Assembly: GCA_030646995.1 (NCBI GenBank)
Contig: JAUSKF010000006.1
Coordinates: 8,624-72,623 of the forward strand
Length of the DNA: 64,000 bases
Origin: a bacterium
Lineage (GTDB): Bacteria; Patescibacteriota; Minisyncoccia; UBA6257; WO2-44-18
Direction: 5' to 3'
Within the stretch, counting starts at the first letter, position 1. Each line of letters opens with the position of its first letter. Below, in pieces: positions 23,341 through 55,943 of the stretch. A program made the translations under genes and the position numbers. The notes below the pieces were generated by a model, which was not told the DNA's origin, did no database searches, and was given only the letters and a program-made list of their open reading frames with translations.

Positions 23341-24498
23341 TTGCGCAGAAAAATTTGTGTGTTCTCCGGTAAGCGCGGTGGATTCGGGGCTTATCTGAAC
23401 TTGATGCGTTTAATCGAGAATGATCCTGATCTAGAATTGCAGATCATTTTGAGCGATATGCACGCTTCCGATAAATTCGGAGCGACCGCAAAAGAGGTGA
23501 AAGGATTTTTCCCTAACGTAGATATGGAAGTGGTTCCGATGAATTCCTCCAGCTCAGATTCTCCGGTGGCTCGCGCAACGAATCTTGGTGCCTGCCTAGA
23601 AGGCTTGGCTCCGGCGCTCGAGCGTCTTAAGCCGAATATTCTGATGGTGCACGGAGATCGCGGAGAACATTTGATGGCAGCATTTGCAGCTCTCAATCTT
23701 GGCATCCCCGTTACTCACACCCAAGGAGGCGAGACTTCCGGAAACATCGATGATGTTCAGCGTCATGCGATTACCAAGTTGGCACATTTGCATTTTCCGG
23801 AAACAGAGAAGGCAGCCCAGAAGATCCGCGCACTTGGAGAAGATGATTGGAGAATCCGAGTTGTCGGGTCTTTGTATATCGATCGGATCGTGGGAAAGCA
23901 GTACTCCGATGTCGGTGAGATGAAGAAGCGTTATGATGCGCCCGGTGAGTACGTTCTCGTGTTGTATCATCCCGACACCTTTCTTACCCCTGCCGAGAAT
24001 CGACAAGTGATGACGGACATCCTGGTTGCGGTTATGCACGTATGGAGGATTAGGACGATCGTCGTTCATCCTTGCTCTGATCCCGGTCATGAGGAAGTGA
24101 TTAGCACAATCAACGCCGCGAAAAAAGAAGACGTTTTTGACCACCTTCGGGTTTACAAGAACATCGATAACTTAGACTTCTTGGGGTTGATGGCCGGTGC
24201 CAGTGCCCTGATTGGAAATTCTTCCGCCGCCTTGGTCGAGGCTCCTTATTTTCATCTGCCGGCAGTCAATGTCGGAGATCGGCAGCGAGGGCGTGATCAC
24301 GAGCTGAACATCATCAACTCCGCAACGGAAATAAATTCCATCGTGAACGCCGTGGGTAAGGCGATCAACCCCTCTGGCGATTTGCGGGATATTTTGAAGA
24401 GTTGTGGGCAGAGATTGGGCGATGGGCATGCCTCCGAAAAGATTTTTGCGGCTCTGAAAGCAGTAGAGATCAACGAAAAACTTTTGCGTAAAAGTTAA
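23341..24498 (+). CDS. UDP-N-acetylglucosamine 2-epimerase, hydrolysing type (NeuC/LegG-like)
   Basis: RKICVFSGKRGGFG...DPDLELQIILSDMH (compare NeuC ILCITGTRADFG...HPDLELHLIVTGMH); HGDRGEHLMAAFAALNLGIPVTHTQGGE. TTG start with a good Shine-Dalgarno sequence, and an in-frame TAA 12 nt upstream. Confidence 0.7.
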   Translation: MRRKICVFSGKRGGFGAYLNLMRLIENDPDLELQIILSDMHASDKFGATAKEVKGFFPNVDMEVVPMNSSSSDSPVARATNLGACLEGLAPALERLKPNILMVHGDRGEHLMAAFAALNLGIPVTHTQGGETSGNIDDVQRHAITKLAHLHFPETEKAAQKIRALGEDDWRIRVVGSLYIDRIVGKQYSDVGEMKKRYDAPGEYVLVLYHPDTFLTPAENRQVMTDILVAVMHVWRIRTIVVHPCSDPGHEEVISTINAAKKEDVFDHLRVYKNIDNLDFLGLMAGASALIGNSSAALVEAPYFHLPAVNVGDRQRGRDHELNIINSATEINSIVNAVGKAINPSGDLRDILKSCGQRLGDGHASEKIFAALKAVEINEKLLRKS

Positions 24499-24523
24499 CC
24501 CGGCTAGAAAGGCCGGGTTTTTA
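24499..24523 (+). terminator. Rho-independent terminator CCCGGCtagaaagGCCGGGTTTTT
   Basis: Starts immediately after the stop codon. Confidence 0.6.
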
Positions 24524-24570
24524 ATTTGTTGTAAAATAATGCGTGCGCAGTTATATTGAGATTGGTTTAC

Positions 24571-25284
24571 ATGATAAATTATGAACATAGTGCCGTTGCG
24601 ATTATTCCTGCTCGTGGCGGATCCAAGGGGCTACCGGGCAAGAATACTAAGTTATTAGCCGGAAAGCCGCTGATCGCCTACAGCATTGAAGCAGCCAAAA
24701 AAAGCCGGTTCGTTAGTCGGGTAATCGTCACCACCGACGATCCAAAGATAGCGGAAGTTGCCAAGGCCGCGGGTGCCGAAGTCCCCTTTTTGCGTCCGGC
24801 GGAGATAGCCCAAGACAGCACCCCGATGTTGCCGGTGGTCCGCCATACCCTAGAATGGTTACAGCAAAATGAAAATTTTGCGCCGGAATTTGTGTTGATG
24901 ATCCAGCCGACTTCTCCATTCGTGAAAACTGAGCAGATAGATGCTCTATTCGAACTTTTGGTTTCCAAAGGAGCTGATTCAGGAATTACTACTATCGAAT
25001 TGCCGCGCCCATTCCATCCATATCACGTGCGCCATCTCACCGAGAGCGGGTATTTAGAATTTGATCAACCGGAATTACATTATCAGCACCCGACTAGGCA
25101 ATCCGATCCGAAACGCTACGCCTTCGCGAGCGTTTATTGGTTCAATCGTGACCTTTTTCTGAAAGAAAATAAAATTGAACCGGGTAAAAGAGTAGGTTTA
25201 CCGGTGGACCCGGCAACCGCGCACGATATCAACAATGCTTTTGATTGGGAAATAGCGGAAGTCCTGGTTAAGAAATACGGCTAG
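24571..25284 (+). CDS. Acylneuraminate/nonulosonate cytidylyltransferase family (NeuA/LegF/PseF/KdsB-like, CTP_transf_3)
   Basis: AIIPARGGSKGLPGKN...VIVTTDDPKIAEVAKAAGAEVPFLRP is a near-textbook NeuA N-terminus. The ATG at 24571 is chosen over the TTG at 24556. Confidence 0.75.
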   Translation: MINYEHSAVAIIPARGGSKGLPGKNTKLLAGKPLIAYSIEAAKKSRFVSRVIVTTDDPKIAEVAKAAGAEVPFLRPAEIAQDSTPMLPVVRHTLEWLQQNENFAPEFVLMIQPTSPFVKTEQIDALFELLVSKGADSGITTIELPRPFHPYHVRHLTESGYLEFDQPELHYQHPTRQSDPKRYAFASVYWFNRDLFLKENKIEPGKRVGLPVDPATAHDINNAFDWEIAEVLVKKYG

Positions 25285-26191: not shown

Positions 26192-26255
26192 TTTTGACTA
26201 TCCCACGTATTTTATTGCATACTACCCCTAGTTGTTTAACAAGAGAGGAGTAGAT

Positions 26256-28421: not shown

Positions 28422-29576
28422 ATGAAGAAGATCTTGGTGTTGGGGATTGACGGATATCTCGGTTGGCCGACTGCGATGCGTTTTTCTCAGTTGGGTTATG
28501 AAGTGGCCGGCGTAGATAATATGGCGAAGCGTGGCTGGGAGGACGAAGTCGGCGCCAAGCCCTTGTGGCCGGTGCCGACCTTGCAAAAGCGAGTCCGGGT
28601 CTGGGAAAAAGTTTCCGGCAAAAAGATTCGGGTATTTGTTGGGGATATCACGGGCGGACGTTTCATCTACAAAGTTTTTGAAGATTTCCGTCCGGACGTA
28701 GTTATTCATTATGCCGAACAGCCTTCGGCGCCGTATTCCATGAAGAATCGTCAGCATGCCGTTTTCACTCAGGAGAACAACGTCTCAGGTACGCTGAACG
28801 TGATTCATGCAATGATGAGTTTTTGCCCCAAAGCGCACCTGGTTAAGCTGGGTACGATGGGTGAGTATGGAACTCCGAACATCGACATTGAAGAAGGCTG
28901 GCTGGACATTGAGCACAACGGTCGTAAGGATCGGATGATGTTTCCGAAGCGGCCGGGATCTTTCTATCACCTGAGTAAGGTGCACGACAGTCACAACATT
29001 GAATTTTGCTGTCGGGTCTGGGGTTTGAGGGCGACCGATCTTAACCAGGGAGTGGTTTATGGTATCGCAACCGACGAAACGGAACTCCACCCGGAATTGC
29101 TCACCAGTTTTCATTACGATAGCGATTTCGGGACTGCCCTGAATCGCTTCTGCGTTGAAGCAGTGGCGGGAGTTCCTTTGACCGTTTACGGAAATGGTGG
29201 CCAGAAGCGCGGATTTTTGAATATCCGTGATACGCTCCAGTGCGTCCAGATCGCTACGGAGAATCCAGCCGAATCCGGAGAGTTTCGGGTATTCAATCAG
29301 TTCACGGAAGTATTTTCTGTGACGGAGCTGGCTAAGTTGGTTCAGAGTGGCGCAAAGGAGCTGGGTTTGTCGGTGAAGATCGCCAACCTGCCCAACCCTC
29401 GCGTCGAAAGTGAGGCGCATCACTATAATCCGAAAAACGATTCGCTTCTGAAGCTCGGATTGCAGCCGAATATGCTTTCTGGAGAGTTGGTTGACTCCAT
29501 GCTCCGGAAGATCCAAGACGCCCGGGAATTGATTGATCTCGAGGTCATTCATCCTAAGACGAAGTGGAAACGTTAA
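28422..29576 (+). CDS. sqdB: UDP-sulfoquinovose synthase (SQD1/SqdB/Agl3 family)
   Basis: Near-identical blocks to plant/cyanobacterial SQD1 from memory: LVKLGTMGEYGTPNIDIEEG, FYHLSKVHDSHNI, ATDLNQGVVYG, GTALNRFCVEA, YGNGGQKRGFLNIRDTLQCVQIA, EFRVFNQFTEVFSVTELA. It is a monocistronic unit flanked by terminators. Confidence 0.85.
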   Translation: MKKILVLGIDGYLGWPTAMRFSQLGYEVAGVDNMAKRGWEDEVGAKPLWPVPTLQKRVRVWEKVSGKKIRVFVGDITGGRFIYKVFEDFRPDVVIHYAEQPSAPYSMKNRQHAVFTQENNVSGTLNVIHAMMSFCPKAHLVKLGTMGEYGTPNIDIEEGWLDIEHNGRKDRMMFPKRPGSFYHLSKVHDSHNIEFCCRVWGLRATDLNQGVVYGIATDETELHPELLTSFHYDSDFGTALNRFCVEAVAGVPLTVYGNGGQKRGFLNIRDTLQCVQIATENPAESGEFRVFNQFTEVFSVTELAKLVQSGAKELGLSVKIANLPNPRVESEAHHYNPKNDSLLKLGLQPNMLSGELVDSMLRKIQDARELIDLEVIHPKTKWKR

Positions 29577-29610: not shown

Positions 29611-29671
29611 CTTAAATTGCCAAACCGGCTTTAAATTGTTAATTTATGGTTATAACTTCCGTCTATCAGAT

Positions 29672-30634
29672 ATGTTGAATATTCTATTAGCAGAAAAAGT
29701 TTTCAGCCCTGATGCCAAGAAGATCCTAGCCAAAAAAGGCAGGGTTGTGGATTTTGTTTCTCGCCGGGAATTTATGAAAAATCTATCGAAGGCCGATGTT
29801 TTAGTGAATGCCTTAGAGATAAAGCTGGATAAGAATATCTTGCAAAAGGCGATCCGGTTGAAGCTGATAGGTAGCCGCACCACCCAGCTTCGCTATATTG
29901 ATTTGGACGAATGCAAAAAACGAGGAATTGAAGTAGTAAATATCAAGGCCGACTCACCGGTATTGCAGATTACCCCGTCCACCGCCGAAGAGGCGATGGC
30001 TCTGATTTTTTCCGTCCTCCGTCATATTCCTTGGGCGTTCGATTCAATTAAAAATGGCCAATGGGATCGGAAAAAATATGAAGGCCGCGAACTTTATGAA
30101 AAAACAGTCGGTCTAATCGGCTTTGGACGCTTAGGAAAGATGGTAGCAAAATTCTGCCAGGCTTTTGGCGCGATAGTGATTGCTTGCGACCCTAATATAA
30201 CCGCTAAGGCTATGCAAAAATCTAAAGTAAGAAAGGTTCCTATGAAAGAGTTGCTTAAAAAAGCTGATATTATTTCTCTGCATTCTGTTTATAATGACGC
30301 TACCTTCGGGATGTTAAAGGAGGAACATTTTCGATCCATGCGGCCGACGGCGATTTTTATCAATACTGCCAGAGGAGAGATAACTGATGAAAAGGCTTTG
30401 CTGAAAGCCCTAAGGCAAAATTGGATCGCCGGATCAGGGATTGATACTTTGGCCGGAGAAATGCCCGACGGCAGACATCTGATAGGTAATCCGCTAGTGG
30501 ATTATGCGCGGAAGAATAATAATTTGATTATCCTTCCACACCTGGGGGGATCCACTAAAGAGGCGACCGAGAGAACCCAGGTCTACATAAGCGAGCTTGT
30601 AGCCCGGGAGTTAAAAGGCGCTAAATATGAATAA
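29672..30634 (+). CDS. D-isomer-specific 2-hydroxyacid dehydrogenase (SerA-like 3-phosphoglycerate/glycerate dehydrogenase)
   Basis: NAD-binding GLIGFGRLGKMVA, catalytic R/E/H context (FINTARGEITDE, HLGGST). It sits upstream of glyA. Start at the ATG at 29672 (MLNILLAEKVF). Confidence 0.65.
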   Translation: MLNILLAEKVFSPDAKKILAKKGRVVDFVSRREFMKNLSKADVLVNALEIKLDKNILQKAIRLKLIGSRTTQLRYIDLDECKKRGIEVVNIKADSPVLQITPSTAEEAMALIFSVLRHIPWAFDSIKNGQWDRKKYEGRELYEKTVGLIGFGRLGKMVAKFCQAFGAIVIACDPNITAKAMQKSKVRKVPMKELLKKADIISLHSVYNDATFGMLKEEHFRSMRPTAIFINTARGEITDEKALLKALRQNWIAGSGIDTLAGEMPDGRHLIGNPLVDYARKNNNLIILPHLGGSTKEATERTQVYISELVARELKGAKYE

Positions 30635-31865
30635 AGATCATCAATTAGGAAAATTAGTTAAAGCCGAGATCAAGAGACAGGAGGAAACCTTGGATCTTAT
30701 CCCGTCCGAAAATTACGCCTCTCCGGAAATTCTAGAATTGCTGGGTTCGCCCCTCACTAATAAATATTCCGAGGGTTATCCGGGCAAGCGCTATTATCCG
30801 GGCAATGTTTTTTATGATGAGATAGAGCGGCTGGCTCAAAAGAGGGCGTTGGAGGTCTTTACTCTGGACCAGAATGAGTGGGCGGTGAACGTACAGCCAT
30901 ATTCCGGATCCCCCGCCAATCTGGCGATCTATTCGGCCCTGATGGAGTTCGGCGATACCCTGCTTGGTTTAAAGTTAGACGCGGGTGGTCATCTCACTCA
31001 TGGGCATAAGGTTAATTTTTCCGGCAAGGCCTACAAGGTTGTTCATTATGGAGTTTCCGAAAAAACGGGATTAATAGACTACGATCAATTGGAAAAGTTG
31101 GCGCGGGAGAATAAGCCCAAGGTAATCGTTTCCGGTTTAACTGCATATCCTCGGGAGATTGATTTTAAAAGGATTGGCGCAGTGGCCAAATCGGTTGGCG
31201 CTTATCACCTGGCGGACATTTCTCATATTGCCGGATTAGTTTTGGCCGGCTTGCACCAATCCCCATTTGATTATGCCGACGTGGTGATGACCACCACTCA
31301 TAAGGCCCTCCGTGGGCCGAGAGGAGCAGTAATCTTTTCGAGAAAATTCCCAATTACTAATTCCCAATTACTAATTTCTGAAGCAATCGATAAGGCGGTT
31401 TTTCCGGGGATGCAGGGCGGGCCCCACAACAACTCCACGGCCGCCCGCGCTTTGATGTTTTGGGAGGCTGGCCAGCCATCGTTCAAAAAATATCAGGAGC
31501 AGACTCTGAAGAACTCTAAAAAACTGGCGGAATCGTTGATGAAATTGGGTTTTAAATTGCTGACCAATGGCACCGACAATCATTTGATGGTAGTAGATTT
31601 GAAGAATTTTAATTTGGATGGAAAGATAGCCGAGCAGATGTTGGAAGCTAATAATATTAATGCTAATCGCAATTCTATTCCCGGAGATCTTTCGCCTCTG
31701 AAGCCGAGCGGTATTCGTATAGGCACTCCAGCGGTTACGACTCGTGGAATGAAGGAGCGAGAAATGGAATTAATCGCTGATTTTATTTATCGGGTATTAG
31801 TTAAAAAGGAAGACGTGGGCGCAGAGGCCAAGAAGCTTTGCAAAAAGTTCCCGCTCCCTTATTAA
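30627..31865 (+). CDS. glyA: Serine hydroxymethyltransferase
   Basis: DLIPSENY, VQPYSGSPAN, TTTHKALRGPRGAVIF, AVFPGMQGGPHNN. It contains a perfect 14-bp tandem duplication at 31347..31374. Confidence 0.9.
   Translation: MNKDHQLGKLVKAEIKRQEETLDLIPSENYASPEILELLGSPLTNKYSEGYPGKRYYPGNVFYDEIERLAQKRALEVFTLDQNEWAVNVQPYSGSPANLAIYSALMEFGDTLLGLKLDAGGHLTHGHKVNFSGKAYKVVHYGVSEKTGLIDYDQLEKLARENKPKVIVSGLTAYPREIDFKRIGAVAKSVGAYHLADISHIAGLVLAGLHQSPFDYADVVMTTTHKALRGPRGAVIFSRKFPITNSQLLISEAIDKAVFPGMQGGPHNNSTAARALMFWEAGQPSFKKYQEQTLKNSKKLAESLMKLGFKLLTNGTDNHLMVVDLKNFNLDGKIAEQMLEANNINANRNSIPGDLSPLKPSGIRIGTPAVTTRGMKEREMELIADFIYRVLVKKEDVGAEAKKLCKKFPLPY
31347..31374 (+). repeat. Perfect 14-bp tandem direct repeat (TTCCCAATTACTAA x2) inside glyA coding sequence
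   Basis: Seen directly. It encodes PITN|SQLL inside the variable loop between the PLP-Lys region and the FPGMQGGP motif. Confidence 0.6.
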
Positions 31866-31866
31866 A

Positions 31867-32646
31867 ATGATTATTAACGGCAAAGAAATAGCCGCTAAAG
31901 TTTTGGCGGAGTTGAAATCTCGACCACGGCCCTTGAAAAGCTTAGTGGCTGTTTTGGTTGGAGATGATGCCGCTTCTTTGAGTTTTTTAAAACAGAAAGA
32001 AAAGATTGCGAAGGAGTTAGAGGTGCCATTTACGTTGGAGAGAATTGCTGAAGAGACCAACGAAGAAGATTTAAAAGAAAGGATTGAAGAGATTTGCTCC
32101 GACAAGGGGGTGGGTGGAGTGATTGTGCAATTGCCGTTGCCGGAAAAATTTAATCGCAGCGAGGTTTTGTCGGCGATTGCGCCGGAAAAAGACGTTGATG
32201 GCTTAGTCGGCGCCGCCTTGCCGCCTGCGGCTTTAACCGTTAAAGAAATTTTGAATAATTTGAGTTTTGATTTGGAGGGAAAGACAGTCGGAGTAGTCGG
32301 CAAAGGATTTTTAGTCGGTGCACCGATTGCGAAGTGGCTGGCCGGAAAATGCGGGGAGGTGATAGTTTTCGATAGCAAAAGTGATTTATCCGGACTAAAA
32401 AAGGCCGACTTAGTGATAACTGGCACCGGAAGGGCCGGCTTGATCAAGCCGGAAATGTTAAAAGTTGGCGCGGGAGTAATTGATTTTGGTTTTGGAATGG
32501 TGGACGGGAAGATTCGTGGCGACCTCGACACTTTTAACTTTGAACTTTTAACTTTAAACTTGTCTTTTTATACCCCGACTCCCGGAGGCACGGGCCCAAT
32601 CTTAGTTGCAGAATTGTTTCGGAACTTTTACGATCTGAATAAGTAA
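31867..32646 (+). CDS. folD: Bifunctional methylene-THF dehydrogenase / methenyl-THF cyclohydrolase (FolD), divergent
   Basis: IINGKEIA, VLVGDDAAS, catalytic-region Lys retained (ASLSFLKQKEK), VGGVIVQLPLPEKF, KDVDG, VVGKGFLVGAPIA, PGGTGPILVAELFRNFY. Confidence 0.7.
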   Translation: MIINGKEIAAKVLAELKSRPRPLKSLVAVLVGDDAASLSFLKQKEKIAKELEVPFTLERIAEETNEEDLKERIEEICSDKGVGGVIVQLPLPEKFNRSEVLSAIAPEKDVDGLVGAALPPAALTVKEILNNLSFDLEGKTVGVVGKGFLVGAPIAKWLAGKCGEVIVFDSKSDLSGLKKADLVITGTGRAGLIKPEMLKVGAGVIDFGFGMVDGKIRGDLDTFNFELLTLNLSFYTPTPGGTGPILVAELFRNFYDLNK

Positions 32647-34620: not shown

Positions 34621-34733
34621 ATATGGTCATTCTATAAGCGGCGTCGGTTTTAATCAATTGCTAAAACTAACTATTTTGGGTATAGTGTGCTTGGAACTTT
34701 CACATTTCATTTACACAAAAAGGAGACTCAAAG

Positions 34734-36023
34734 ATGTCTGACGGAGTCAAGAAAACGGTTGGCGAACTCCGCAAGGAAGCGGTGGCCACCCACGATGAAC
34801 GCTCTGAAAAGATCTTCAATTGGGCCAAGGAGCATGGGGGCGTGCACCACCGGGTAAGTCGCTATAAGACCAGGGCAACTCCGGAAAACGTGCAGAAACT
34901 GATCGATTTGATCTCCGGCGCGCTGGAGGCCAGCGTCCGACCGGATGCTTCTATTCTGATTTCGGTGATGGCCTACCTTCAGAAGTATGATCCTACCAAT
35001 ACTGATGAAGCGGGGCGGGACACCGGTGGTTTCTCCCTTGCTCTAAGCGAGATTGACGTCGCATTGACGCATCTCGATGACAGCCAAGAGAAAGCGCTCC
35101 GTTACCTGGCATATCGCTACAAATCCAAAATGTATCCGGATGAGAGCCGAGTCGTGGATTTCCCGACTATTCTTTATGTTGAATCGGCGTTGGCCTGCAA
35201 TCTGATGTGCACGATGTGCTATCAGTCGGATAAGAAACTTGTCGAAGTGATAAGATCTACAGAAAAGAAGGTAATGGATTGGGATCTTTATCAGAAAGTG
35301 ATCGATGAGGGCGCGGAAAACGGCCTTTGCGCGGTTGTATTTGCCGGCAGGGGCGAGCCTACGCTGAATAAAAACTTCACCCAGATGCTCCGGTACGCCG
35401 ACGATAAGGGAGTCCTGGACATCAAGATCAATACCAACGCCACTAGACTCACGGAGCAGATGGTTCGCGATTGGCTTTCCATCGGCGCTCCTCTGACTGT
35501 GGTTTTCTCGGTAGACGCCGCCGACAAAGAAGGCTTCGAGGCAATCCGCCTTGGCGCTAACTTCGACGAGGTGATTGCCAACATCAAGATGTTTGACCGG
35601 ATCCGCTCGGAAGAATTTCCGGACTCTCCGGTCCGCACCCGCATCTCGATGACTCTTTTTCAGGATAGTCAGGATCCGGAAGCGGCGAGAAATTTGTGGG
35701 GTAGTCTGGTTGATGAGTTTACCGCCAAGAACGCTCGTGGCGAGCAGTCCGGCAGTATTTATCAGACCGGCATTGGCGGCCAGCCCAAGAATCTGAATCC
35801 CGGTAAGAAGTGTCGAGTACTCTTCGACCGCCTGTATATCTGGTGTGATGGCAAGGTGAATCCTTGCGAGGATGATTACTTGAGCACGCTTCAACTCGGC
35901 AATGCCTACACGCACACACTGAAGTCTCTTTGGGGTTCCAAGGAGATGAACACGATGCGGATCCGGCATATGACCGGCTGTAAGAACAAGATCAGCCCGT
36001 GCAACGGCTGCAACGGATACTAA
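34734..36023 (+). CDS. Radical SAM enzyme with C-terminal SPASM/twitch Cys-rich domain and a ~140-aa N-terminal extension
   Basis: CNLMCTMC (CxxxCxxC) at residues ~155-162, glycine-rich GRGEPTL, C-terminal Cys cluster CRVLFDRLYIWCDGKVNPCED...CKNKISPCNGCNGY. AAAGGAG Shine-Dalgarno sequence. Confidence 0.7.
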   Translation: MSDGVKKTVGELRKEAVATHDERSEKIFNWAKEHGGVHHRVSRYKTRATPENVQKLIDLISGALEASVRPDASILISVMAYLQKYDPTNTDEAGRDTGGFSLALSEIDVALTHLDDSQEKALRYLAYRYKSKMYPDESRVVDFPTILYVESALACNLMCTMCYQSDKKLVEVIRSTEKKVMDWDLYQKVIDEGAENGLCAVVFAGRGEPTLNKNFTQMLRYADDKGVLDIKINTNATRLTEQMVRDWLSIGAPLTVVFSVDAADKEGFEAIRLGANFDEVIANIKMFDRIRSEEFPDSPVRTRISMTLFQDSQDPEAARNLWGSLVDEFTAKNARGEQSGSIYQTGIGGQPKNLNPGKKCRVLFDRLYIWCDGKVNPCEDDYLSTLQLGNAYTHTLKSLWGSKEMNTMRIRHMTGCKNKISPCNGCNGY

Positions 36024-36033
36024 AGGAGAAAAC

Positions 36034-36999
36034 ATGAAAAACAAAGTTTACCTAGCTGGTCTGGGAAACTTCGGGAAGAAGATCGGGGAGTATCTCGAAA
36101 AGATGGGCAAGAACGTTTGCGTTCTGCCGAAAGACTTGGCGGCGCAGACCGAGGCCCTCAAAGATCCCGAAGTGGAAGCCCTGTTTGTAGTCACTCCCAA
36201 CGATCGGCATTATGAATTGCTGGATAAAGCCTTGAAGGGAGGGCGGCACCACATTTTTGTGGAAAAGCCGATCACGTCTTCTTGGGGGGATGCTTTGCAG
36301 CTTCGCGATCTAGCGAAAGCAAACAGGAACATTTTGATGGTTGGTCACAACCAGCGGCGTGAAGCAGTTTTCCGGAAAGCAAAAGAAATTTTGGATTCCG
36401 GAAGGATCGGCAAGGTTGTCAGTGCGTACTTCAACTACTCTCACGGCGCGGCGTTCAATATCTCGCCGGATAATTGGCGAGCGCAGATCAAGCGGCATCG
36501 TGAAGGCCCGTTGATCACTCTTGGTAGTCATAGCATTGATACCCTGCATTATCTTCTGGGCCCGGTGAAATTGGTCACGGCGTTCATTCAGAATTTGACC
36601 GGCAAGATCGAGGCACCGGATGCGAATGCGGTGACGATGTTGATGGAAAACGGAGCAACTGTTTTTTTGCAGGCGGATTACAATATCCCCAGCGAGAAGA
36701 TCTGCTTGATCCACGGGACGGAAGGAGTAATCGGGATTAACCGCGACAAGATTCACCTGCGGATCGGCCGGGACGTTGATCGGAAACCTTCCGAGTATGA
36801 AGAGATCCCGGTCGCTCACGTGGATACGATTGAAGAAGAGCTGGAAGAGTTCTTTGCGGCGATTGAAGGCAGGGCCACCGTGGAGACTGGTTTTTCCGAA
36901 GCCTTCAACGTGATGGCCGTGATAGATAGTTGTTTTCATAGCGATAGACATCGCCCACTGCTTTCTGTGGCTGATGAATCGCCCGGCTACTTTTCTTAG
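36034..36999 (+). CDS. Gfo/Idh/MocA-family NAD(P)-dependent oxidoreductase (sugar/cyclitol dehydrogenase-like)
   Basis: N-terminal Rossmann KVYLAGLGNFGKK, HIFVEKP motif, C-terminal alpha/beta domain. Forms a two-gene unit with the radical SAM/SPASM gene, and a terminator follows. Confidence 0.7.
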   Translation: MKNKVYLAGLGNFGKKIGEYLEKMGKNVCVLPKDLAAQTEALKDPEVEALFVVTPNDRHYELLDKALKGGRHHIFVEKPITSSWGDALQLRDLAKANRNILMVGHNQRREAVFRKAKEILDSGRIGKVVSAYFNYSHGAAFNISPDNWRAQIKRHREGPLITLGSHSIDTLHYLLGPVKLVTAFIQNLTGKIEAPDANAVTMLMENGATVFLQADYNIPSEKICLIHGTEGVIGINRDKIHLRIGRDVDRKPSEYEEIPVAHVDTIEEELEEFFAAIEGRATVETGFSEAFNVMAVIDSCFHSDRHRPLLSVADESPGYFS

Positions 37000-37001
37000 A
37001 T

Positions 37002-37028
37002 GAGCCCCTTGTAAGGGGCTCTTTTTTA
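37002..37028 (+). terminator. Rho-independent terminator GAGCCCCTtgtaAGGGGCTCTTTTTT
   Basis: Seen directly, 3 nt after the stop. Confidence 0.7.
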
Positions 37029-37044
37029 ACTTAATAATTAGGGA

Positions 37045-38364
37045 ATGCGAACCATCTTTTTATTCGTGGATAAGCCGACTTTCATAGGGGACCTGTTGGA
37101 CACCTCTTATCTGCCTTACCTAGCCTCCAAATATAAGGTGATAGTTTTTACTCGCAAAGTAGACCAGCGGGAGGCGGCGGCGCGCGGTTACCACCAGTCG
37201 CCAAATATTACTTATATGAAATGGCAGATCGAGAACAATCGTCTGCTGGGAGCGATGAAGTTTTTCCGATTTTCCTGCATACGGGAATTCGATTATCTGA
37301 TTACCACAAAATATATACGCAATCGCCGCGGTGAAGATGGAAATAGTTCTCTATTAAGAATTGCCTCTTGGCCCTTAGCCTGGTTGTTCACCTCAAAGTT
37401 TTTTAATTTCATTGAGCGTTTGCTGATGAGGCGTTCGGCCAAGTTTTCCGAATATTGCCGGACTTATCAGCCATCACTGGTCATCACCGCCACCCCCGGT
37501 TTGAATAATTTTGAGGCGGAAGCGGTTTGGCTCGCTAAAAAAGCCGGCCTGCCTACGGTAGCGGTCGATTGCGCTTGGGACAACCTCACTACCCGTGTTA
37601 CCCGCGTTCGTCCCACTGACTATTTTTTTGCCTGGCATGAGCCGATGCGTCAGGAGGCGATAAGGATACACGGCCTTTCTCCGGAACGAGTGCAGGTTAC
37701 CGGACCTTTGCGTTTTGATTATTACTTCACCAAGGAGCCTCAGCAGCCAACCAAGGAAGAGTTTTTGCAATCGTGCGGGCTGGATCCGAAGCTGCCGGCC
37801 ATTTTATATACCACGCAAAAATCCCATCTTTTTGAGGATGATTTTTTAAGGAATCTTATCCAGATGCGTAATGAGCAGCAGATCCCATATGCCAGCATCT
37901 TTATCAGAGTGCACCCACTGGCAAAGCCGGGCCGTTTTCAGGAATTTGAAAAGTTGAAAGATATTTTTGTTGATAGGCCGACAGAAGTTATGTCGTCTGC
38001 CGATCTACGTCATTTAAAATACTCGCTTATGTATGCCGACCTGAATATTAACTATTCCTCCACCATTTCTTTGGAGGCGATGGCTTTTGATAAGCCGGTG
38101 ATAAATTATTTCGAGCCCAGCCTGAAAAGTTTTGAGTTGAATCATTATAAGCCCTTGTTGGATATGAAAGCGTTAAAGTTGGTTTATGACACCAAAAATG
38201 AGCTGGCCAAAGCCATCCGCGATTATTTAGAAGATCCGAGTATTGATCGGGAAGCCCGCAATAAGGTTTTGAATATCTATTTCCCGTTCCGGGACGGCCT
38301 GTGTTATAAGAGGAATGTAGATTTCCTAGAGGAAATTGCAAATTATGGAAATAAGAAAGATTAA
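37045..38364 (+). CDS. TagB/TagF-like polyol-/glycosyl-phosphate transferase, paralog 2
   Basis: LVITATPGLNNFEAEAVWLAKKAGLPTVAVDCAWDNLTTR; C-terminal INYSSTISLEAMAFDKPVINYFEP. Homologous to the ORFs at 21224, 39444, 40809 and 53823. Confidence 0.5.
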   Translation: MRTIFLFVDKPTFIGDLLDTSYLPYLASKYKVIVFTRKVDQREAAARGYHQSPNITYMKWQIENNRLLGAMKFFRFSCIREFDYLITTKYIRNRRGEDGNSSLLRIASWPLAWLFTSKFFNFIERLLMRRSAKFSEYCRTYQPSLVITATPGLNNFEAEAVWLAKKAGLPTVAVDCAWDNLTTRVTRVRPTDYFFAWHEPMRQEAIRIHGLSPERVQVTGPLRFDYYFTKEPQQPTKEEFLQSCGLDPKLPAILYTTQKSHLFEDDFLRNLIQMRNEQQIPYASIFIRVHPLAKPGRFQEFEKLKDIFVDRPTEVMSSADLRHLKYSLMYADLNINYSSTISLEAMAFDKPVINYFEPSLKSFELNHYKPLLDMKALKLVYDTKNELAKAIRDYLEDPSIDREARNKVLNIYFPFRDGLCYKRNVDFLEEIANYGNKKD

Positions 38365-39439
38365 AAAATCAGAGCTTGGCAAAGTTATGGAATTCAACCG
38401 GAAGGAATATCCGGCTGGCCATATTTTGCAGAACGAAACTTACTACAATTGGCAGTTTGATAATGTTTTCAATCCGGAATCGGACAGTTATACCTCCCTC
38501 GGCCTTTTTAATGATGCGGGAGAGTTGGTCGGCACTAATGGATTATTCCCTGCCCCAATCACTTTTTTAAGCAAAAGTCTCCCGTGTATTTGGTTCGCCA
38601 ATTTGATCGTTCGTGAAGATCTACGTAGTTTGGGATATGGCTATCTTCTGATGGAGAAAAGTGTATCGATGGCGGATATGGCGGTAGACCACAATATAAA
38701 TGCTGCGGCGTGGCCTCTTTTTATTAAATCTGGCTGGCAAGGCGGAGATATTGAGCGGTATTTGGGAATTATTAATCCGGAAGGGGCCGAGAGAGTGATT
38801 GGTCAGAGTAATTTAGGGTTGAAGGTCTTGAGTTCTCTGCCGACTAATGATTCCGGTTTGAATTTTGAGTCAGTTTCCAAATTTGATTCGGAAGTGGATG
38901 CTTTGTGGGAAAGCGTCTCGCAGCGTTATCCAATTTCTATAGAGCGAAGTAGTAAATATCTCAATTGGAGATATGCCGAGCATCCGATGACGAAATATCA
39001 CATTTTTTCGGCCAACGCTGGAAACGAAATGAAAGGATTTATTGTGTTGCGCATAGATGAGATCACCGAAGGACCGGAACGAAAGCCGTCGGGAGTTAAG
39101 ATCGGCAGGATAATTGATTGGGTGGCTGACTCGAGCGCAGAAGAATTTATTTTGTTGCAGGCAATCGAGTGGTGCCGGGATCAAAAAGTGGATTTTATTG
39201 ATTATTTCACTACTGAGAATTTTCACGCCGAAAGTCTGAAGAAGTTGGGTTTCGTGAATGATAGGGAAGAGCCTTATTCTTTGATGCCAACCCTCCTGAA
39301 CCCGATCGACCGAGTTAAAAGGACGCGACATAATTTTGCCTTTAAGATTTCTAATCCTGAAAGATTAGATTCCAAGGCGCAAGATTTGGGTAATTGGTAT
39401 GCAGTTAAAGGTTGTGGCGACCAGGATCGGCCATATTAA
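38345..39439 (+). CDS. Acyltransferase of the GNAT fold, FemAB-like tandem architecture (tentative)
   Basis: About 365 aa, in two roughly 170-aa halves with GNAT-like beta-strand/helix patterns (…GYGYLLMEKSV…; …KGFIVLRIDE…). Weak call from sequence alone. Confidence 0.3.
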   Translation: MEIRKIKKSELGKVMEFNRKEYPAGHILQNETYYNWQFDNVFNPESDSYTSLGLFNDAGELVGTNGLFPAPITFLSKSLPCIWFANLIVREDLRSLGYGYLLMEKSVSMADMAVDHNINAAAWPLFIKSGWQGGDIERYLGIINPEGAERVIGQSNLGLKVLSSLPTNDSGLNFESVSKFDSEVDALWESVSQRYPISIERSSKYLNWRYAEHPMTKYHIFSANAGNEMKGFIVLRIDEITEGPERKPSGVKIGRIIDWVADSSAEEFILLQAIEWCRDQKVDFIDYFTTENFHAESLKKLGFVNDREEPYSLMPTLLNPIDRVKRTRHNFAFKISNPERLDSKAQDLGNWYAVKGCGDQDRPY

Positions 39440-39443
39440 AAAG

Positions 39444-40799
39444 ATGAAAACGATTTTTCTAACTAGTTTTAATCCGTTTATCGCGCGCAACATTCTGGCT
39501 ACGGATGTTTTGCGGATTTTGAAGGAATGCAGCGATTTGAAGATCGTAGTTTTTGTGCCAGATTATAAAATTGATTGGTTTAAGAAGAATTTTTCCGGAC
39601 TGAATGTGGTTTTTGAAGGCATTATGTCGCAAAAGATTTCCCGCACCGATGTTATTTTTACCTACCTTGCCAGCTCTCTTTTAGACAGTAAGACCTTGGC
39701 CATTCATAAGAGAGAAGAATTGGCGAAGGATCATAATTATTTTAAATTCGCAGCCTCTTGGGCGCTCAGGAAAATCATTGGCCGCGCAAAAACCTTTCGC
39801 TGGTTAGTTCGATTGCTGGATAGTAAATTTTCTTTCAGATTGGAGTTGAAAAAATATTTTGATAGTTATAAGCCAGATCTTTTGTTTGCGACTGATGTTT
39901 ATCACAATGACGATGTCCATTTTCTATTGGAGGCCCAGCGGCGCTGTGTCTCTACGATCGGAATGATCCGTTCTTGGGATAATATTACTAACAAGGGAAT
40001 TTTCCGGGCCAAGCCCGATCAGTTGATTGTGCACAATGAAACCATTCGGGATGAGGCGGTCCAATTCAATGATTTCAATTCTGAGAAAATTTTTGTTTCC
40101 GGCATCCCTCAATATGATGACTTCGTTAAAGGGCAGAGGATGGAGCGAGCGGAATTTTTCGCCAAGCTCGGGCTGGATCCAGCGAAGAAACTTATTATGT
40201 ATTCTCCGTTTGGAGGTCGTTTTTATAAATATGACGGAGAAATATTAGAAATTTTAAAGGAGTTAGGTGAGCAAGTTCTGGTGCGCATGCCCCCAAACGA
40301 CAAGACTGAATTGATAGGCTTCCAGCCAACAAAACTTTTTTATATTGATCAGTCTGGTCACAAATTCCAAAAAGATACTTTGCGTGATGTGGAATTAAAC
40401 CAGCAGGATATGCGTTGGCTCGGAGATTCCTTGTATCATACCGATGTGCTGGTCGCCTGCGGGGCAAGTATCGCTATTGATGCCGCGCTATTCAACAAGC
40501 CGTCCGTATTCATTTATTTTGATGGCTTAGAAGAAGATTTGCCGTACATGAAGAGTGCTCGCCGATGGCTAGATTTTGACCATGCGAGAAAGCTTCGGGA
40601 TCTCGGCGGATCAGTGTCGGCGATGAGTAAAAAGGAATTACTGGAATTCGTCGGGTCTTTTTTGAGGAATCCGGCCAAGGATCAAGAGAAGAGGAGGGCT
40701 CTAGCCGAAAAGCAGTGCTGGAAGTTGGACGGAAGATCGGGCCATCGGATTGCCGAATTTATTTTAGCCAGAATTGACCTTCAGCGTTTCGGAGGATAG
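39444..40799 (+). CDS. TagB/TagF-like polyol-/glycosyl-phosphate transferase, paralog 3
   Basis: MKTIFLTSFNPFIARNIL N-terminus shared with the paralogs; LVACGASIAIDAALFNKPSVFIYFDGLEEDLPY; terminal LDGRSGHRIAEFI. The start is moved to the ATG at 39444. Confidence 0.5.
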   Translation: MKTIFLTSFNPFIARNILATDVLRILKECSDLKIVVFVPDYKIDWFKKNFSGLNVVFEGIMSQKISRTDVIFTYLASSLLDSKTLAIHKREELAKDHNYFKFAASWALRKIIGRAKTFRWLVRLLDSKFSFRLELKKYFDSYKPDLLFATDVYHNDDVHFLLEAQRRCVSTIGMIRSWDNITNKGIFRAKPDQLIVHNETIRDEAVQFNDFNSEKIFVSGIPQYDDFVKGQRMERAEFFAKLGLDPAKKLIMYSPFGGRFYKYDGEILEILKELGEQVLVRMPPNDKTELIGFQPTKLFYIDQSGHKFQKDTLRDVELNQQDMRWLGDSLYHTDVLVACGASIAIDAALFNKPSVFIYFDGLEEDLPYMKSARRWLDFDHARKLRDLGGSVSAMSKKELLEFVGSFLRNPAKDQEKRRALAEKQCWKLDGRSGHRIAEFILARIDLQRFGG

Positions 40800-40808
40800 A
40801 TTGAATGA

Positions 40809-42161
40809 ATGAAGACAGTCTTTTTAGCGGTGCCGCACGCGGTATTTTCCTCGGACCTTTTACGGACAAAATATATAGAGTATTTGGCTCAGAAATATAA
40901 AGTAGTGGTTTTGAGCGAAATGTTTGATGCCGCCGAGGCTAAGGAGCGAGGATATTTCCAGTCTTCAAATGTTGCATACATAAAGCGTGATATAGAGAAT
41001 CCGCGTTTTTGGGGCCGAATGAAATTTTTGCGCGTTGCCCTAATCAATGAGTTTGATTACTTAATTTCGATCAAGCATTTTTATAAGCGCCCCAACTATG
41101 CCAATAACTGGAAGAGAAGGGTGGTTCGCATGATTGGTTTGCCGTTCAAATATTTTTTGACCGCTGATTTTTTTACAAAATGGGAATTAAAATACTGCCC
41201 CATCTCCCCCCAATTCAATTCTTTACTTTCGGAGTATAAACCGGATCTACTGATTACCGCTACGCCGGGCTTTTCTCCTCTAGAGGCGGAATTAGTTGTT
41301 TTAGCGAAGCGCTCCGGCTTGCCGTCGGTAGCGGTTAACTTTAGCTGGGATAACCTGACTATGAATTCCAAGCATATCCGCAAAACCGATTGGTTGATCG
41401 CTTGGAATGAGGTGATGCGGCAAGAAGCTATTAATATACATAAATATTCTCCTGAAAAAGTTTCTGTGTCGGGTACTTTGAGATTTGACCCATATTTTGA
41501 TGACTCCGACGCTGTGATCGGAGCAGGTAAAGAAGAGCCAACGCGGAAAACTTTTTTGGAGTCCAAGGGATTGAACCCAGAGAATAAAACCGTTTTTCAC
41601 ACTACGGTTACTAAGGCTTACCCGTTCCAGAAAAAATATATTAATGATCTGATCAAATTGAGGGATTCCAAAAAAATCCCCTACGTTAATTTCTTGATCC
41701 GAATCCATCCCTTGGATTTGATAGAGAACTATTCGGAATTCAAGAATATTCCCGATCTTTGCTTGGAAAGGTCCGGTCAAAATGTAGAAATGAGCTATAC
41801 CGACCTGCTGAACCTTAAATATTCTTTGAAATATACCGATCTGAACATCAATTATGCTTCTACGATCACCATTGAGGCCTGTATTTTCGATAAGCCGGTC
41901 ATCAACATTGGCTATTTGGATCGCTTCGCCTTGGCCTATGAGTTCAACCATTATCAACCAATTTATGAAAGTGGAGCGATAAAGTTAGCGAAGACTGACG
42001 AGGACTTACCGATCCTTATTAATCAATACTTAGAGCATCCGGAATCAGGAAGGGAGCAGCGGTTAGCAATCGTGGATAAGTATGTACAATTCACTGATGG
42101 TTTATCATATAAACGTAGCGTAGACGCGCTAAGCGCAATATTTAAATATTTAAATATTTAA
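40809..42161 (+). CDS. TagB/TagF-like polyol-/glycosyl-phosphate transferase, paralog 4
   Basis: MKTVFLAVPH…; LLITATPGFSPLEAELVVLAKRSGLPSVAVNFSWDNLT; INYASTITIEACIFDKPVINIGY. Confidence 0.5.
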   Translation: MKTVFLAVPHAVFSSDLLRTKYIEYLAQKYKVVVLSEMFDAAEAKERGYFQSSNVAYIKRDIENPRFWGRMKFLRVALINEFDYLISIKHFYKRPNYANNWKRRVVRMIGLPFKYFLTADFFTKWELKYCPISPQFNSLLSEYKPDLLITATPGFSPLEAELVVLAKRSGLPSVAVNFSWDNLTMNSKHIRKTDWLIAWNEVMRQEAINIHKYSPEKVSVSGTLRFDPYFDDSDAVIGAGKEEPTRKTFLESKGLNPENKTVFHTTVTKAYPFQKKYINDLIKLRDSKKIPYVNFLIRIHPLDLIENYSEFKNIPDLCLERSGQNVEMSYTDLLNLKYSLKYTDLNINYASTITIEACIFDKPVINIGYLDRFALAYEFNHYQPIYESGAIKLAKTDEDLPILINQYLEHPESGREQRLAIVDKYVQFTDGLSYKRSVDALSAIFKYLNI

Positions 42162-52517: not shown

Positions 52518-52518
52518 A

Positions 52519-55172: not shown

Positions 55173-55190
55173 AACGATACTATTAAACCA

Positions 55191-55667: not shown

Positions 55668-55717
55668 GGTGTATTGGATTTTTCCTGATTTTGTTGCATA
55701 GTCTTAGGGAAATTATG

Positions 55718-55939: not shown

Positions 55940-55943
55940 AAAA

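What the first reader, a model, noticed from the sequence alone, without database searches (positions are those of the whole stretch)
34734..36999. Two-gene module: radical SAM/SPASM enzyme with a 140-aa N-terminal extension, plus a Gfo/Idh/MocA oxidoreductase
SPASM/twitch radical SAM enzymes are best known for peptide maturation (PqqE, MftC), anaerobic sulfatase maturation and the aminocyclitol dehydrogenase BtrN. Here one sits in a carbohydrate locus, translationally coupled to an NAD(P)-dependent sugar/cyclitol dehydrogenase and closed by its own terminator. There is no precursor-peptide-like small ORF nearby. The pairing suggests radical-mediated oxidation or epimerisation of a sugar or cyclitol that ends up in the surface glycan. 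The N-terminal extension is uncharacterised.
Basis: partly seen in the sequence, partly recalled or inferred. Interest (0 to 1): 0.7.

Follow-up and report, generated by a model that had tools for sequence, protein, structure and literature searches.

The report
Radical-SAM plus ketoreductase sugar-tailoring gene pair
Two adjacent genes encode an iron-sulfur "radical SAM" enzyme related to the sugar-oxidising enzyme BtrN and an NAD(P)-dependent sugar oxidoreductase; the same pair sits in cell-surface sugar (sialic-acid-like) gene clusters of very different microbes, and no member appears to have been studied experimentally.

Summary
ORFs 34734-36023 (429 aa) and 36034-36999 (321 aa) are real genes. 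Each has its own Shine-Dalgarno site, they are 10 nt apart, and a strong hairpin plus T-run follows at 37002-37027.

The first protein is a radical SAM enzyme. It has only four conserved C-terminal cysteines, so it carries a BtrN-type Twitch domain with one auxiliary cluster, not a full SPASM domain. A family profile finds BtrN as the closest solved structure (E 1.9e-15). The 145-aa N-terminal extension is all-helical, matches no known fold, and is not an RRE. No precursor peptide is present.

The second protein is a Gfo/Idh/MocA oxidoreductase with an intact EKP-Lys/His dyad.

The pairing is conserved. In 60 of 81 non-redundant loci (CPR, SAR11, Thaumarchaeota, Cyanobacteria, Chloroflexota and others) the oxidoreductase gene is immediately adjacent. 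Where it is missing, an SDR reductase or an aminotransferase often takes its place. Neighbours are dominated by CMP-sugar cytidylyltransferases, NeuB synthases and TagB/BFO_1060-like nonulosonic-acid transferases.

My best reading is that the radical enzyme makes a keto sugar on a nonulosonic-acid-type intermediate and the partner reduces it, giving an epimer or a deoxy sugar. The chemistry is inferred, not shown. I rate it a new variant of a known kind, of moderate to high interest.

The parts
34658..34686 (+). Sigma-70-like promoter candidate (TTGCTA-17-TATAGT) in the divergent intergenic region upstream of the rSAM gene
   Evidence: This is weak evidence: the number of promoter-like hits in the region does not exceed that in shuffled sequence.
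34721..34725 (+). Shine-Dalgarno AGGAG, 8 nt before the rSAM ATG
   Evidence: Read directly from the sequence.
34734..36023 (+). Twitch-type radical SAM enzyme gene (429 aa)
34734..35168 (+). N-terminal helical extension (aa 1-145). About the first 45 aa are specific to the CPR clade. The last two helices (aa 104-137: E106, Y124, R128, Y129) are conserved family-wide.
35196..35219 (+). CX3CX2C radical-SAM cluster motif (C155, C159, C162)
   Evidence: Invariant in 42/42 sequences.
35799..36020 (+). Twitch domain (aa 356-429) with four invariant Cys (C360, C378 preceded by G373-x4, C423, C426). The protein ends 3 residues after the CX2C.
   Evidence: All four Cys align with the BtrN auxiliary-cluster ligands in the profile-PDB alignment.
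36024..36028 (+). Shine-Dalgarno AGGAG for the oxidoreductase gene, directly after the rSAM stop codon
36034..36999 (+). Gfo/Idh/MocA NAD(P)-dependent oxidoreductase gene (321 aa). G9-x-G11-xx-G14 dinucleotide loop; E77-K78-P79 and H166 catalytic dyad.
   Evidence: E77/K78 and H166 are invariant in 56/56 partner proteins.
37002..37027 (+). Intrinsic terminator (GAGCCCCTTGTAAGGGGCTC + TTTTTT) closing the two-gene unit
37045..42161 (+). Context: three TagB/BFO_1060-like putative nonulosonic-acid transferases (37045-38364, 39399-40799, 40809-42161) and a GNAT-domain protein (38336-39439), directly downstream
   Evidence: BFO_1060 is the T. forsythia orthologue of the Pse/Leg-derivative transferases (PMC5420450). 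The same rSAM-GFO-TagB order occurs in L004, L008 and L010.
23341..25284 (+). Context: NeuC-type hydrolysing UDP-GlcNAc 2-epimerase (23341-24498) and PseF-like CMP-sugar cytidylyltransferase (24556-25284)
   Evidence: TIGR03568 307.6 bits against cut-off 235.9; PseF 162.5 bits, below cut-off 205.7.

Best explanation
The two genes form a self-contained sugar-tailoring cassette in a surface-glycan locus.

Step 1. The radical SAM enzyme cleaves SAM reductively at its CX3CX2C [4Fe-4S] cluster. The 5'-deoxyadenosyl radical abstracts the hydrogen from a carbinol carbon of a nonulosonic-acid-type sugar, most likely the CMP-activated form or its immediate precursor. The resulting ketyl radical loses an electron to the single, fully Cys-ligated Twitch cluster, giving a keto sugar. 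This is BtrN/SpeY-type dehydrogenation.

Step 2. The Gfo/Idh/MocA partner uses NAD(P)H and its Lys/His dyad to reduce that ketone from the opposite face.

The net result is an irreversible inversion of one unactivated stereocentre, in effect a 'split epimerase'. The modified CMP-sugar is then used by the adjacent TagB/BFO_1060-like transferases.

Shown: gene structure, domain architecture, cysteine pattern, closest structural relatives, and conservation of the pairing and of the neighbourhood.

Inferred: substrate identity, the position attacked, the order of the two enzymes, and the stereochemical outcome.
For: 1. Architecture. Exactly seven invariant Cys: three for the SAM cluster and four with BtrN spacing (C-x17-C, about 45 residues, CxxC). 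The family profile hits BtrN best in the PDB (E 1.9e-15), with both the core and the Twitch domain aligned and all four Cys matched.

3. No further invariant Cys exists that could act as the H-atom donor of single-enzyme rSAM epimerases. A separate reductase is therefore expected.

4. Partner. It is a Gfo/Idh/MocA protein with invariant EKP Lys and His166 in 56/56 partners. Its nearest solved relatives are NADPH-dependent oxidoreductases/ketoreductases such as 1,5-anhydrofructose reductase.

5. Linkage. The oxidoreductase gene lies immediately downstream in 56 and immediately upstream in 4 of 81 non-redundant loci from many phyla. Pairwise divergence of the two proteins is correlated (r = 0.72, Mantel p <= 5e-4).

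6. Partner replacement. In clades lacking the Gfo partner, the adjacent gene is often an adh_short SDR (L058, L078, L085) or an aminotransferase (L001/L028, L074, L075, L062). All of these are carbonyl-processing enzymes, which argues that the rSAM product is a carbonyl.

7. Context. Within +-8 kb, CTP_transf_3 occurs in 40 of 81 loci and NeuB in 28, with adh_short, DegT, KdsC-like HAD and SIS also recurring. The window itself has NeuC, a PseF-like gene and five BFO_1060-like genes. Shorter relatives sit in the same context.

8. Precedent. The Gfo/Idh/MocA enzyme ElaA and the SDR ElaC are proposed, from homology, crystal structures and docking, to epimerise C8 of CMP-legionaminic acid through a CMP-8-keto intermediate (PMC13656337).
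Against: - No activity data exist for any family member.
- No NeuB is present in this 64-kb window, so the nonulosonic-acid assignment for this particular locus rests on NeuC, the PseF-like gene, the BFO_1060-like genes and related loci.
- Spending a SAM to oxidise an alcohol that a NAD-dependent enzyme such as ElaA can oxidise needs a rationale. Irreversibility is only my inference.
- Several loci carry the rSAM, the Gfo partner and an adh_short SDR together. Three such enzymes are more than a simple oxidise-then-reduce scheme needs.
- The order of action is unknown; the Gfo enzyme might act first.
Confidence: 0.35

Rival explanations
1. Radical deoxygenation by AprD4/AprD3-type logic. After H-abstraction, the substrate radical eliminates a neighbouring hydroxyl, for example on the C7-C9 glycerol side chain of a Kdn/Neu-type sugar. 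The resulting deoxy-keto sugar is reduced by the Gfo/Idh/MocA partner with NAD(P)H. The net result is a deoxy sugar made after, not before, chain assembly.
For: - An rSAM dehydratase paired with an NADPH reductase is an established two-enzyme unit (AprD4/AprD3; PMC5461906).
- Dehydrating an unactivated diol truly requires radical chemistry, which would explain why an rSAM is used.
- Several loci hold only NeuB, a KdsC-like HAD phosphatase, CMP-transferase, rSAM and Gfo partner, sometimes with SIS, and no 4,6-dehydratase or aminotransferase (L083, L057, L080). The product there would otherwise be a fully hydroxylated Kdn-like sugar.
- Replacement of the partner by an SDR or an aminotransferase fits equally well.
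Against: - From my own knowledge, not tested here: a fully Cys-ligated Twitch cluster is typical of the dehydrogenases BtrN and SpeY and of anSME.
- The closest profile match is the dehydrogenase BtrN.
Confidence: 0.25
2. Reverse order or different chemistry. The Gfo/Idh/MocA enzyme first oxidises a hydroxyl with NAD(P)+, as ElaA does. The rSAM then acts on the keto sugar or at another position, for example by radical rearrangement, C-C cleavage/decarboxylation or ring chemistry.
For: - ElaA, a 323-aa Gfo/Idh/MocA enzyme with a K91/H181 dyad, is proposed as the oxidising half of the CMP-Leg C8 epimerase. The partner here has the equivalent K78/H166 and a similar size.
- Loci carrying the rSAM, the Gfo partner and an adh_short SDR together would suit a three-step route.
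- BlsE, deposited as a cytosylglucuronate decarboxylase, is a close structural neighbour.
Against: - Replacement of the Gfo partner by aminotransferases is harder to explain if the partner supplies the substrate rather than consuming a carbonyl product.
- In four loci the gene order is Gfo-rSAM but in 56 it is rSAM-Gfo. Gene order is weak evidence either way.
Confidence: 0.15
3. Same redox logic but a different substrate class. The module acts on an NDP-hexose, a hexose phosphate or a cyclitol unrelated to nonulosonic acids. The NeuB/CMP-transferase neighbours would then reflect only shared residence in glycan islands.
For: - This window has no NeuB but does have CDP-glucose and GDP-mannose pathway genes.
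- The Gfo partner's best NCBIfam hits, all far below cut-off, are levoglucosan, inositol and UDP-GlcNAc 3-dehydrogenases.
- BtrN's own substrate is an aminocyclitol.
Against: - The CTP_transf_3 and NeuB association holds across CPR, SAR11, Thaumarchaeota, Planctomycetota and even the shorter subfamily.
- No inositol-pathway genes recur.
Confidence: 0.15
4. Peptide or protein maturase (RiPP or anSME-like).
For: SuiB, ChlB, SkfB and anSME are among the top structural matches. Many NCBIfam peptide-maturase models give weak hits.
Against: - All those NCBIfam scores are far below cut-off.
- There is no small ORF and no sulfatase gene.
- Only one auxiliary cluster is predicted.
- The 81 loci are overwhelmingly carbohydrate loci.
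Confidence: 0.03

Closest known systems
BtrN (butirosin 2-deoxy-scyllo-inosamine dehydrogenase; PDB 4M7T/4M7S)
   Different: Identity is only about 21%. BtrN has 250 aa and no N-terminal domain, whereas this protein has a 145-aa helical extension with family-wide conserved residues. BtrN sits in an aminoglycoside cluster and its product is transaminated. Here the setting is a surface-glycan locus and the fixed partner is a Gfo/Idh/MocA reductase.
ElaA/ElaB/ElaC of Acinetobacter baumannii KL49 (proposed CMP-legionaminic acid C8 epimerisation)
   Same: A Gfo/Idh/MocA enzyme with a Lys/His dyad acts on a CMP-nonulosonic acid through a keto intermediate. A second redox enzyme completes the inversion, and a CTP_transf_3 cytidylyltransferase lies in the same locus (PMC13656337).
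   Different: The Ela system has no radical SAM enzyme. Oxidation is NAD(P)+-dependent and reduction is done by an SDR. I could not compare the window protein with ElaA directly because no ElaA sequence was available.
AprD4/AprD3 (apramycin C3' deoxygenation)
   Same: A radical SAM enzyme that makes a keto sugar is paired with a dedicated NAD(P)H reductase (PMC5461906).
SpeY, HygY and NeoN (twitch rSAM sugar dehydrogenase and epimerases of aminoglycoside pathways)
   Different: From my own knowledge, the single-enzyme epimerases use an extra Cys as H-donor. No such invariant Cys exists here. No sequences of HygY or NeoN were available for a direct test.
NCBIfam NF033640 'N_Twi_rSAM' (twitch domain-containing radical SAM protein with an N-terminal region)
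   Same: Second-best NCBIfam hit. It also models an rSAM with about 100 residues ahead of the core and a Twitch domain.
   Different: The score of 83 bits is far below the 170-bit cut-off, so this protein is not a member.

Membership tests
Radical SAM superfamily | CX3CX2C motif for the SAM-binding [4Fe-4S] cluster within a partial TIM barrel | tested here: met
Radical SAM superfamily | Reductive cleavage of SAM to 5'-deoxyadenosyl radical | not testable with these tools
   Requires anaerobic biochemistry.
SPASM subgroup (two auxiliary clusters) | Seven-Cys motif CX9-15GX4C ... CX2CX5CX3C ... C | tested here: not met
   Only C360, C378, C423 and C426 are conserved, and the protein ends three residues after the CX2C. 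The Pfam SPASM model still scores above cut-off (39.4 against 21.5). It aligns across residues 360-427, which hold all four of these Cys.
Twitch subgroup (BtrN type, one auxiliary cluster) | C ... GX4C ... CX2C, with four Cys available for one [4Fe-4S] cluster | tested here: met
   C360-x12-G373-x4-C378-x44-C423-x2-C426 are all invariant and align one-to-one with the BtrN Twitch cysteines. Cluster content itself was not measured.
BtrN orthologue (DOIA dehydrogenase) | Close sequence relationship and a 2-deoxystreptamine pathway context | tested here: not met
   Identity is about 21%, the single-sequence E-value is only 1e-3, the protein has an extra N-terminal domain, and none of the 81 loci contains aminoglycoside genes.
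RiPP maturase with RRE | N-terminal PqqD-like RRE (winged helix with a three-stranded sheet) and an adjacent precursor peptide | tested here: not met
NCBIfam NF033640 N_Twi_rSAM / TIGR04317 W_rSAM_matur | Score at or above the curated cut-off | tested here: not met
   83 bits against 170, and 85.4 bits against 380.
Gfo/Idh/MocA oxidoreductases | [quoted passage not shown] | tested here: met
   PF01408 57 bits, PF22725 85.9 bits and PF02894 66.7 bits, all above cut-off. G9, E77, K78 and H166 are invariant in 56 partners. The best PDB hit is 3DB2, a putative NADPH-dependent oxidoreductase (E 1.5e-27).
ElaA-type CMP-nonulosonic acid dehydrogenase | Sequence relationship to ElaA and activity on a CMP-nonulosonic acid | not tested
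   No ElaA sequence was available. Only shared fold family, shared dyad, similar length and locus context (CMP-transferase, nonulosonic-acid-type transferases) support the analogy.
AprD4/AprD3-type deoxygenation pair | An rSAM 1,2-diol dehydratase homologous to AprD4 plus an NADPH reductase | tested here: inconclusive

The most novel reading that the evidence does not exclude
The cassette is a post-assembly radical deoxygenation or inversion system for nine-carbon sialic-acid-like sugars. It would act on the CMP-activated sugar, and it would be shared by the ocean's most abundant microbes (SAR11, Thaumarchaeota, Prochlorococcus) and by CPR bacteria. If so, it creates nonulosonic-acid structures, such as side-chain deoxy or epi forms, that cannot be predicted from the canonical NDP-hexose 4,6-dehydratase routes. 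It would also be the first radical SAM enzyme assigned to nonulosonic-acid biosynthesis.
Probability: 0.3. Interest if true: 0.8.

Novelty: new variant of a known kind. Interest (0 to 1): 0.6.

Why it matters
The characterised twitch radical SAM sugar enzymes I know of (BtrN, SpeY, HygY, NeoN; own knowledge) come from antibiotic pathways of actinomycetes and bacilli. This finding describes a large uncharacterised family: 3262 cluster representatives at 50% identity score E <= 1e-30, and relatives occur in 266 species genomes.

The family is locked to a ketoreductase partner and embedded in cell-surface glycan islands. Those islands belong to SAR11, ammonia-oxidising archaea, picocyanobacteria and CPR bacteria. 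From my own knowledge, not tested here, their surface glycans are thought to matter for interactions with phages and grazers, and their chemistry is almost unknown.

Assigning the reaction would add a new tailoring step to nonulosonic-acid biosynthesis and improve structure prediction from sequence. It would also provide a new enzyme pair for making rare sialic-acid analogues.

Tried and rejected
- Literature. Six full-text searches found no paper describing this family or pairing: radical SAM with nonulosonic, legionaminic, NeuB or twitch/epimerase, and a broader search on nonulosonic-acid terms. 'NeuB' mostly matched unrelated words. The AprD4/AprD3 primary paper (PMC4943880) is not held.
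- The window protein itself is not indexed for contig look-up, so I could not inspect the rest of the 169-kb contig for NeuB.
- The afdb50 fold library was unavailable.
- Apparent long fusion ORFs (L027, L077, L071) show only rSAM and SPASM domains. They are probably over-extended ORF calls and were uninformative.
- Source annotations for ten relatives carry no functional name.
- RiPP/RRE reading: rejected, as set out under the rival explanations.
- A role for the Gfo partner as electron donor to the Fe-S clusters: rejected on general grounds (own knowledge), because the family has no flavin or Fe-S cofactor.
- Single-enzyme epimerase (NeoN/HygY type): considered unlikely because no eighth invariant Cys exists.
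Full report
**Observation**

The window contains two same-strand ORFs at exactly the reported coordinates: 34734-36023 (429 aa) and 36034-36999 (321 aa). Each is preceded by AGGAG at a canonical distance. The two genes are 10 nt apart. The second Shine-Dalgarno site directly follows the first gene's stop codon. An 8-bp, GC-rich hairpin followed by TTTTTT lies 2 nt after the second stop codon (37002-37027).

Upstream is a 113-nt divergent intergenic region shared with an SDR epimerase gene on the minus strand. It contains no credible small ORF. The two genes have the highest G+C in the locus: 0.527 and 0.511, against 0.459 for the window.

The pair therefore looks like a compact bicistronic unit. 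'Translationally coupled' is plausible but not proven. In homologous loci the gap ranges from -53 to +17 nt, where negative values are upper bounds from longest-ORF calls.

**The radical SAM protein**

Pfam finds Radical_SAM (residues 154-287) and SPASM (360-427). All NCBIfam hits are far below their cut-offs. The best are the tungsten-cofactor maturase model and NF033640, 'twitch domain-containing radical SAM protein'.

A 42-sequence alignment spanning 74-31% identity shows exactly seven invariant cysteines:
- C155, C159 and C162 form the SAM cluster motif.
- C360, C378 (preceded by G373-x4), C423 and C426 lie in the C-terminal domain.
- The protein ends three residues after the CX2C.

This is the half-SPASM 'Twitch' pattern, which predicts one auxiliary cluster, not the seven-Cys SPASM motif.

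A profile of the alignment finds BtrN as the best solved relative (E 1.9e-15). Both the core and the Twitch domain align, and all four Cys match. SuiB, CteB, anSME, DesII, Tes, SkfB, BlsE and MoaA follow.

**The N-terminal extension**

The first 45 or so residues are specific to the CPR clade. The last two helices carry family-wide conserved residues (E106, Y124, R128, Y129) and probably cap the active site. That last point is inference.

**The partner**

The 321-aa protein has all three Gfo/Idh/MocA Pfam domains above cut-off. Its closest solved relatives are a putative NADPH-dependent oxidoreductase (3DB2, E 1.5e-27), 3E18, 1,5-anhydrofructose reductase and scyllo-inositol dehydrogenases. 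Across 56 partner proteins, G9, E77, K78 (the EKP motif) and H166 are invariant. The enzyme is therefore a catalytically competent NAD(P)-dependent sugar oxidoreductase.

**Conservation of the pair**

The window protein is identical to one from a public 'bacterium' MAG contig of 169 kb. The closest relatives are Patescibacteria (CPR). A scan of one genome per species found relatives in 266 genomes, and 79 loci were fetched. They come from:
- CPR groups (Saccharibacteria, Parcubacteria, Yanofskybacteria, Harrisonbacteria);
- SAR11/Pelagibacter and other Alphaproteobacteria;
- Nitrosopumilus and Nitrosopelagicus;
- marine Cyanobacteria;
- Chloroflexota, Elusimicrobiota, Omnitrophota and Planctomycetota;
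- Altiarchaeales and Bacillus.

The family has 3262 representatives at 50% identity with E <= 1e-30.

Among 81 non-redundant loci:
- a Gfo/Idh/MocA gene lies immediately downstream on the same strand in 56;
- it lies immediately upstream in 4;
- 12 loci lack one;
- 5 are too short to tell.

Divergence of the two proteins is correlated (r = 0.72, Mantel p <= 5e-4). Shared organismal history contributes to this correlation.

On a neighbour-joining tree, most of the loci without a Gfo partner fall in one clade. In several of them the adjacent gene is an adh_short SDR (L058, L078, L085). Elsewhere it is a class I/II aminotransferase (L001/L028 Bacillus, L074, L075) or a DegT aminotransferase (L062). 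These are all enzymes that act on a carbonyl.

**Neighbourhood**

Within +-8 kb of the family, the recurring genes are:

| Gene family | Loci (of 81) |
|---|---|
| CTP_transf_3 cytidylyltransferase | 40 |
| Extended SDR | 29 |
| NeuB synthase | 28 |
| adh_short | 20 |
| TagB-like Glyphos_transf | 18 |
| DegT | 16 |
| UDP-sugar dehydrogenase | 13 |
| 2-hydroxyacid dehydrogenase | 12 |
| KdsC-like HAD phosphatase | 7 |
| SIS isomerase | 6 |

HisH/HisF-type genes of the kind that, from my own knowledge, are linked to acetamidino-group formation also occur. Two shorter relatives (347 and 360 aa) sit in the same context. In one the rSAM gene is followed by a Gfo gene and two DegT genes. In the other it is followed by carbamoyltransferase, CTP_transf_3 and NeuB genes.

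In the window itself, the genes upstream of the pair are:
- a NeuC-type hydrolysing 2-epimerase, above the curated cut-off;
- a PseF-like cytidylyltransferase;
- a deacetylase;
- a B12-radical SAM methyltransferase-like protein;
- an SQD1-like SDR;
- a PGDH-like dehydrogenase, SHMT and FolD;
- a GT4 glycosyltransferase.

Directly downstream of the pair are three TagB/BFO_1060-like proteins and a GNAT. BFO_1060 is the Tannerella forsythia orthologue of the genetically implicated pseudaminic/legionaminic-acid-derivative transferases, which are TagB-like (PMC5420450). The order rSAM, Gfo, TagB-like is kept in L004, L008 and L010. No NeuB, KdsC-like or SIS gene is present in the 64 kb, so the synthase must lie elsewhere if the sugar is a nonulosonic acid.

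**Mechanism**

Four lines of evidence point the same way:
1. The enzyme has a BtrN-like Twitch architecture.
2. It has no eighth conserved Cys that could return a hydrogen atom.
3. It is obligately linked to a ketoreductase-type enzyme.
4. That enzyme is replaced in other clades by SDR reductases or aminotransferases.

Together these suggest that the radical SAM enzyme generates a carbonyl on the sugar and the partner consumes it.

Two outcomes fit. In the first, dehydrogenation is followed by reduction from the other face, giving irreversible epimerisation. In the second, radical-triggered loss of a neighbouring hydroxyl is followed by reduction, giving deoxygenation as in AprD4/AprD3 (PMC5461906).

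A close functional precedent for the partner is ElaA. It is a 323-aa Gfo/Idh/MocA enzyme with a K91/H181 dyad. It is proposed to oxidise C8 of CMP-legionaminic acid to the 8-keto form, which the SDR ElaC then reduces to the 8-epimer (PMC13656337). EpaA/EpaB do the analogous job on pseudaminic acid (PMC12053666). This precedent also keeps alive the rival in which the Gfo enzyme acts first.

I rank the readings as follows:
- epimerisation through an rSAM-made ketone, about 0.35;
- deoxygenation, about 0.25;
- reverse order or other radical chemistry, about 0.15;
- a non-nonulosonic substrate, about 0.15;
- a peptide maturase, about 0.03.

**Comparison and novelty**

The protein belongs to the radical SAM superfamily and to the Twitch subgroup. 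It is not a SPASM protein in the strict sense, not a BtrN orthologue, not a member of any curated NCBIfam family, and not an RRE-containing maturase.

It probably works like BtrN/SpeY or AprD4 combined with a dedicated reductase. Unlike them, it sits in primary surface-glycan biosynthesis and carries a new N-terminal domain. Full-text searches found no description of the family or of any radical SAM enzyme in nonulosonic-acid biosynthesis. The searched library is incomplete, so this is absence of evidence only.

I classify it as a new variant of a known kind. Interest is 0.6: a specialist would find the breadth and fixity of the pairing notable, and the hypothesis is directly testable in vitro.

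Noticed in passing
window 26232-28343: A second radical SAM enzyme lies in the same locus. It is a 703-aa B12-binding rSAM resembling KedN5-type C-methyltransferases (180 bits, cut-off 700). It sits next to the module in the CPR loci L004, L008 and L010, which suggests a C-methylated sugar.
   Followed up: partly
window 28422-29576: An SDR scores 475 bits against the UDP-sulfoquinovose synthase model (cut-off 575). It may be a sulfo-sugar or SQD1-like enzyme in a CPR glycan locus, and it is conserved in L004, L008 and L010.
   Followed up: no
window 29636-32646: A PGDH-like 2-hydroxyacid dehydrogenase, serine hydroxymethyltransferase and FolD are embedded, with overlapping or abutting ORFs, inside the glycan operon. 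L008 has the same order. They may supply a glyceroyl, seryl or one-carbon substituent for the sugar.
   Followed up: no
window 21224-22570, 37045-38364, 39399-40799, 40809-42161, 53823-55172: There are five paralogous TagB/BFO_1060-like (Glyphos_transf) proteins in one locus. This is unusual redundancy of putative nonulosonic-acid or alditol-phosphate transferases.
   Followed up: partly
window 23341-25284 and whole window: A NeuC-type hydrolysing 2-epimerase (above the curated cut-off) and a PseF-like CMP-transferase are present, but no NeuB, KdsC-like HAD or SIS gene occurs anywhere in the 64 kb (tblastn).
   Followed up: yes
window 34734-36999: The two module genes have the highest G+C in the locus (0.527 and 0.511, against 0.459 for the window and 0.41-0.45 for the genes downstream). 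This hints that the pair moves as a cassette.
   Followed up: partly
L054 7761-11848; L011 3997-8639: The module is duplicated in some genomes. A Pelagibacteraceae locus has rSAM-Gfo-rSAM-Gfo in tandem. A CPR locus has two rSAM copies (56-59% identical to the window protein) separated by a Gfo gene and a deacetylase gene.
   Followed up: no
window 43097-44929: A 610-aa ORF has no Pfam or NCBIfam hit. It is conserved in the related loci L006 and L008.
   Followed up: no
window 49573-57757: The downstream block holds a three-domain TPP enzyme, a class I/II aminotransferase, a DegT aminotransferase, a TagB-like protein, a GNAT and an AMP-binding (acyl-adenylate) enzyme. The same aminotransferase family sits next to a split transketolase in L006, and next to the rSAM gene in Bacillus (L001).
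   Followed up: no
L001 5659-16776 (Bacillus pseudomycoides): A culturable host carries a 38%-identical family member. Its gene overlaps an aminotransferase gene and lies within a cluster of NeuB, a CTP_transf_3/AP_endonuc_2 fusion, adh_short, SIS, PhyH and ATP-grasp genes, next to an NRPS gene. This is a practical entry point for genetics.
   Followed up: partly
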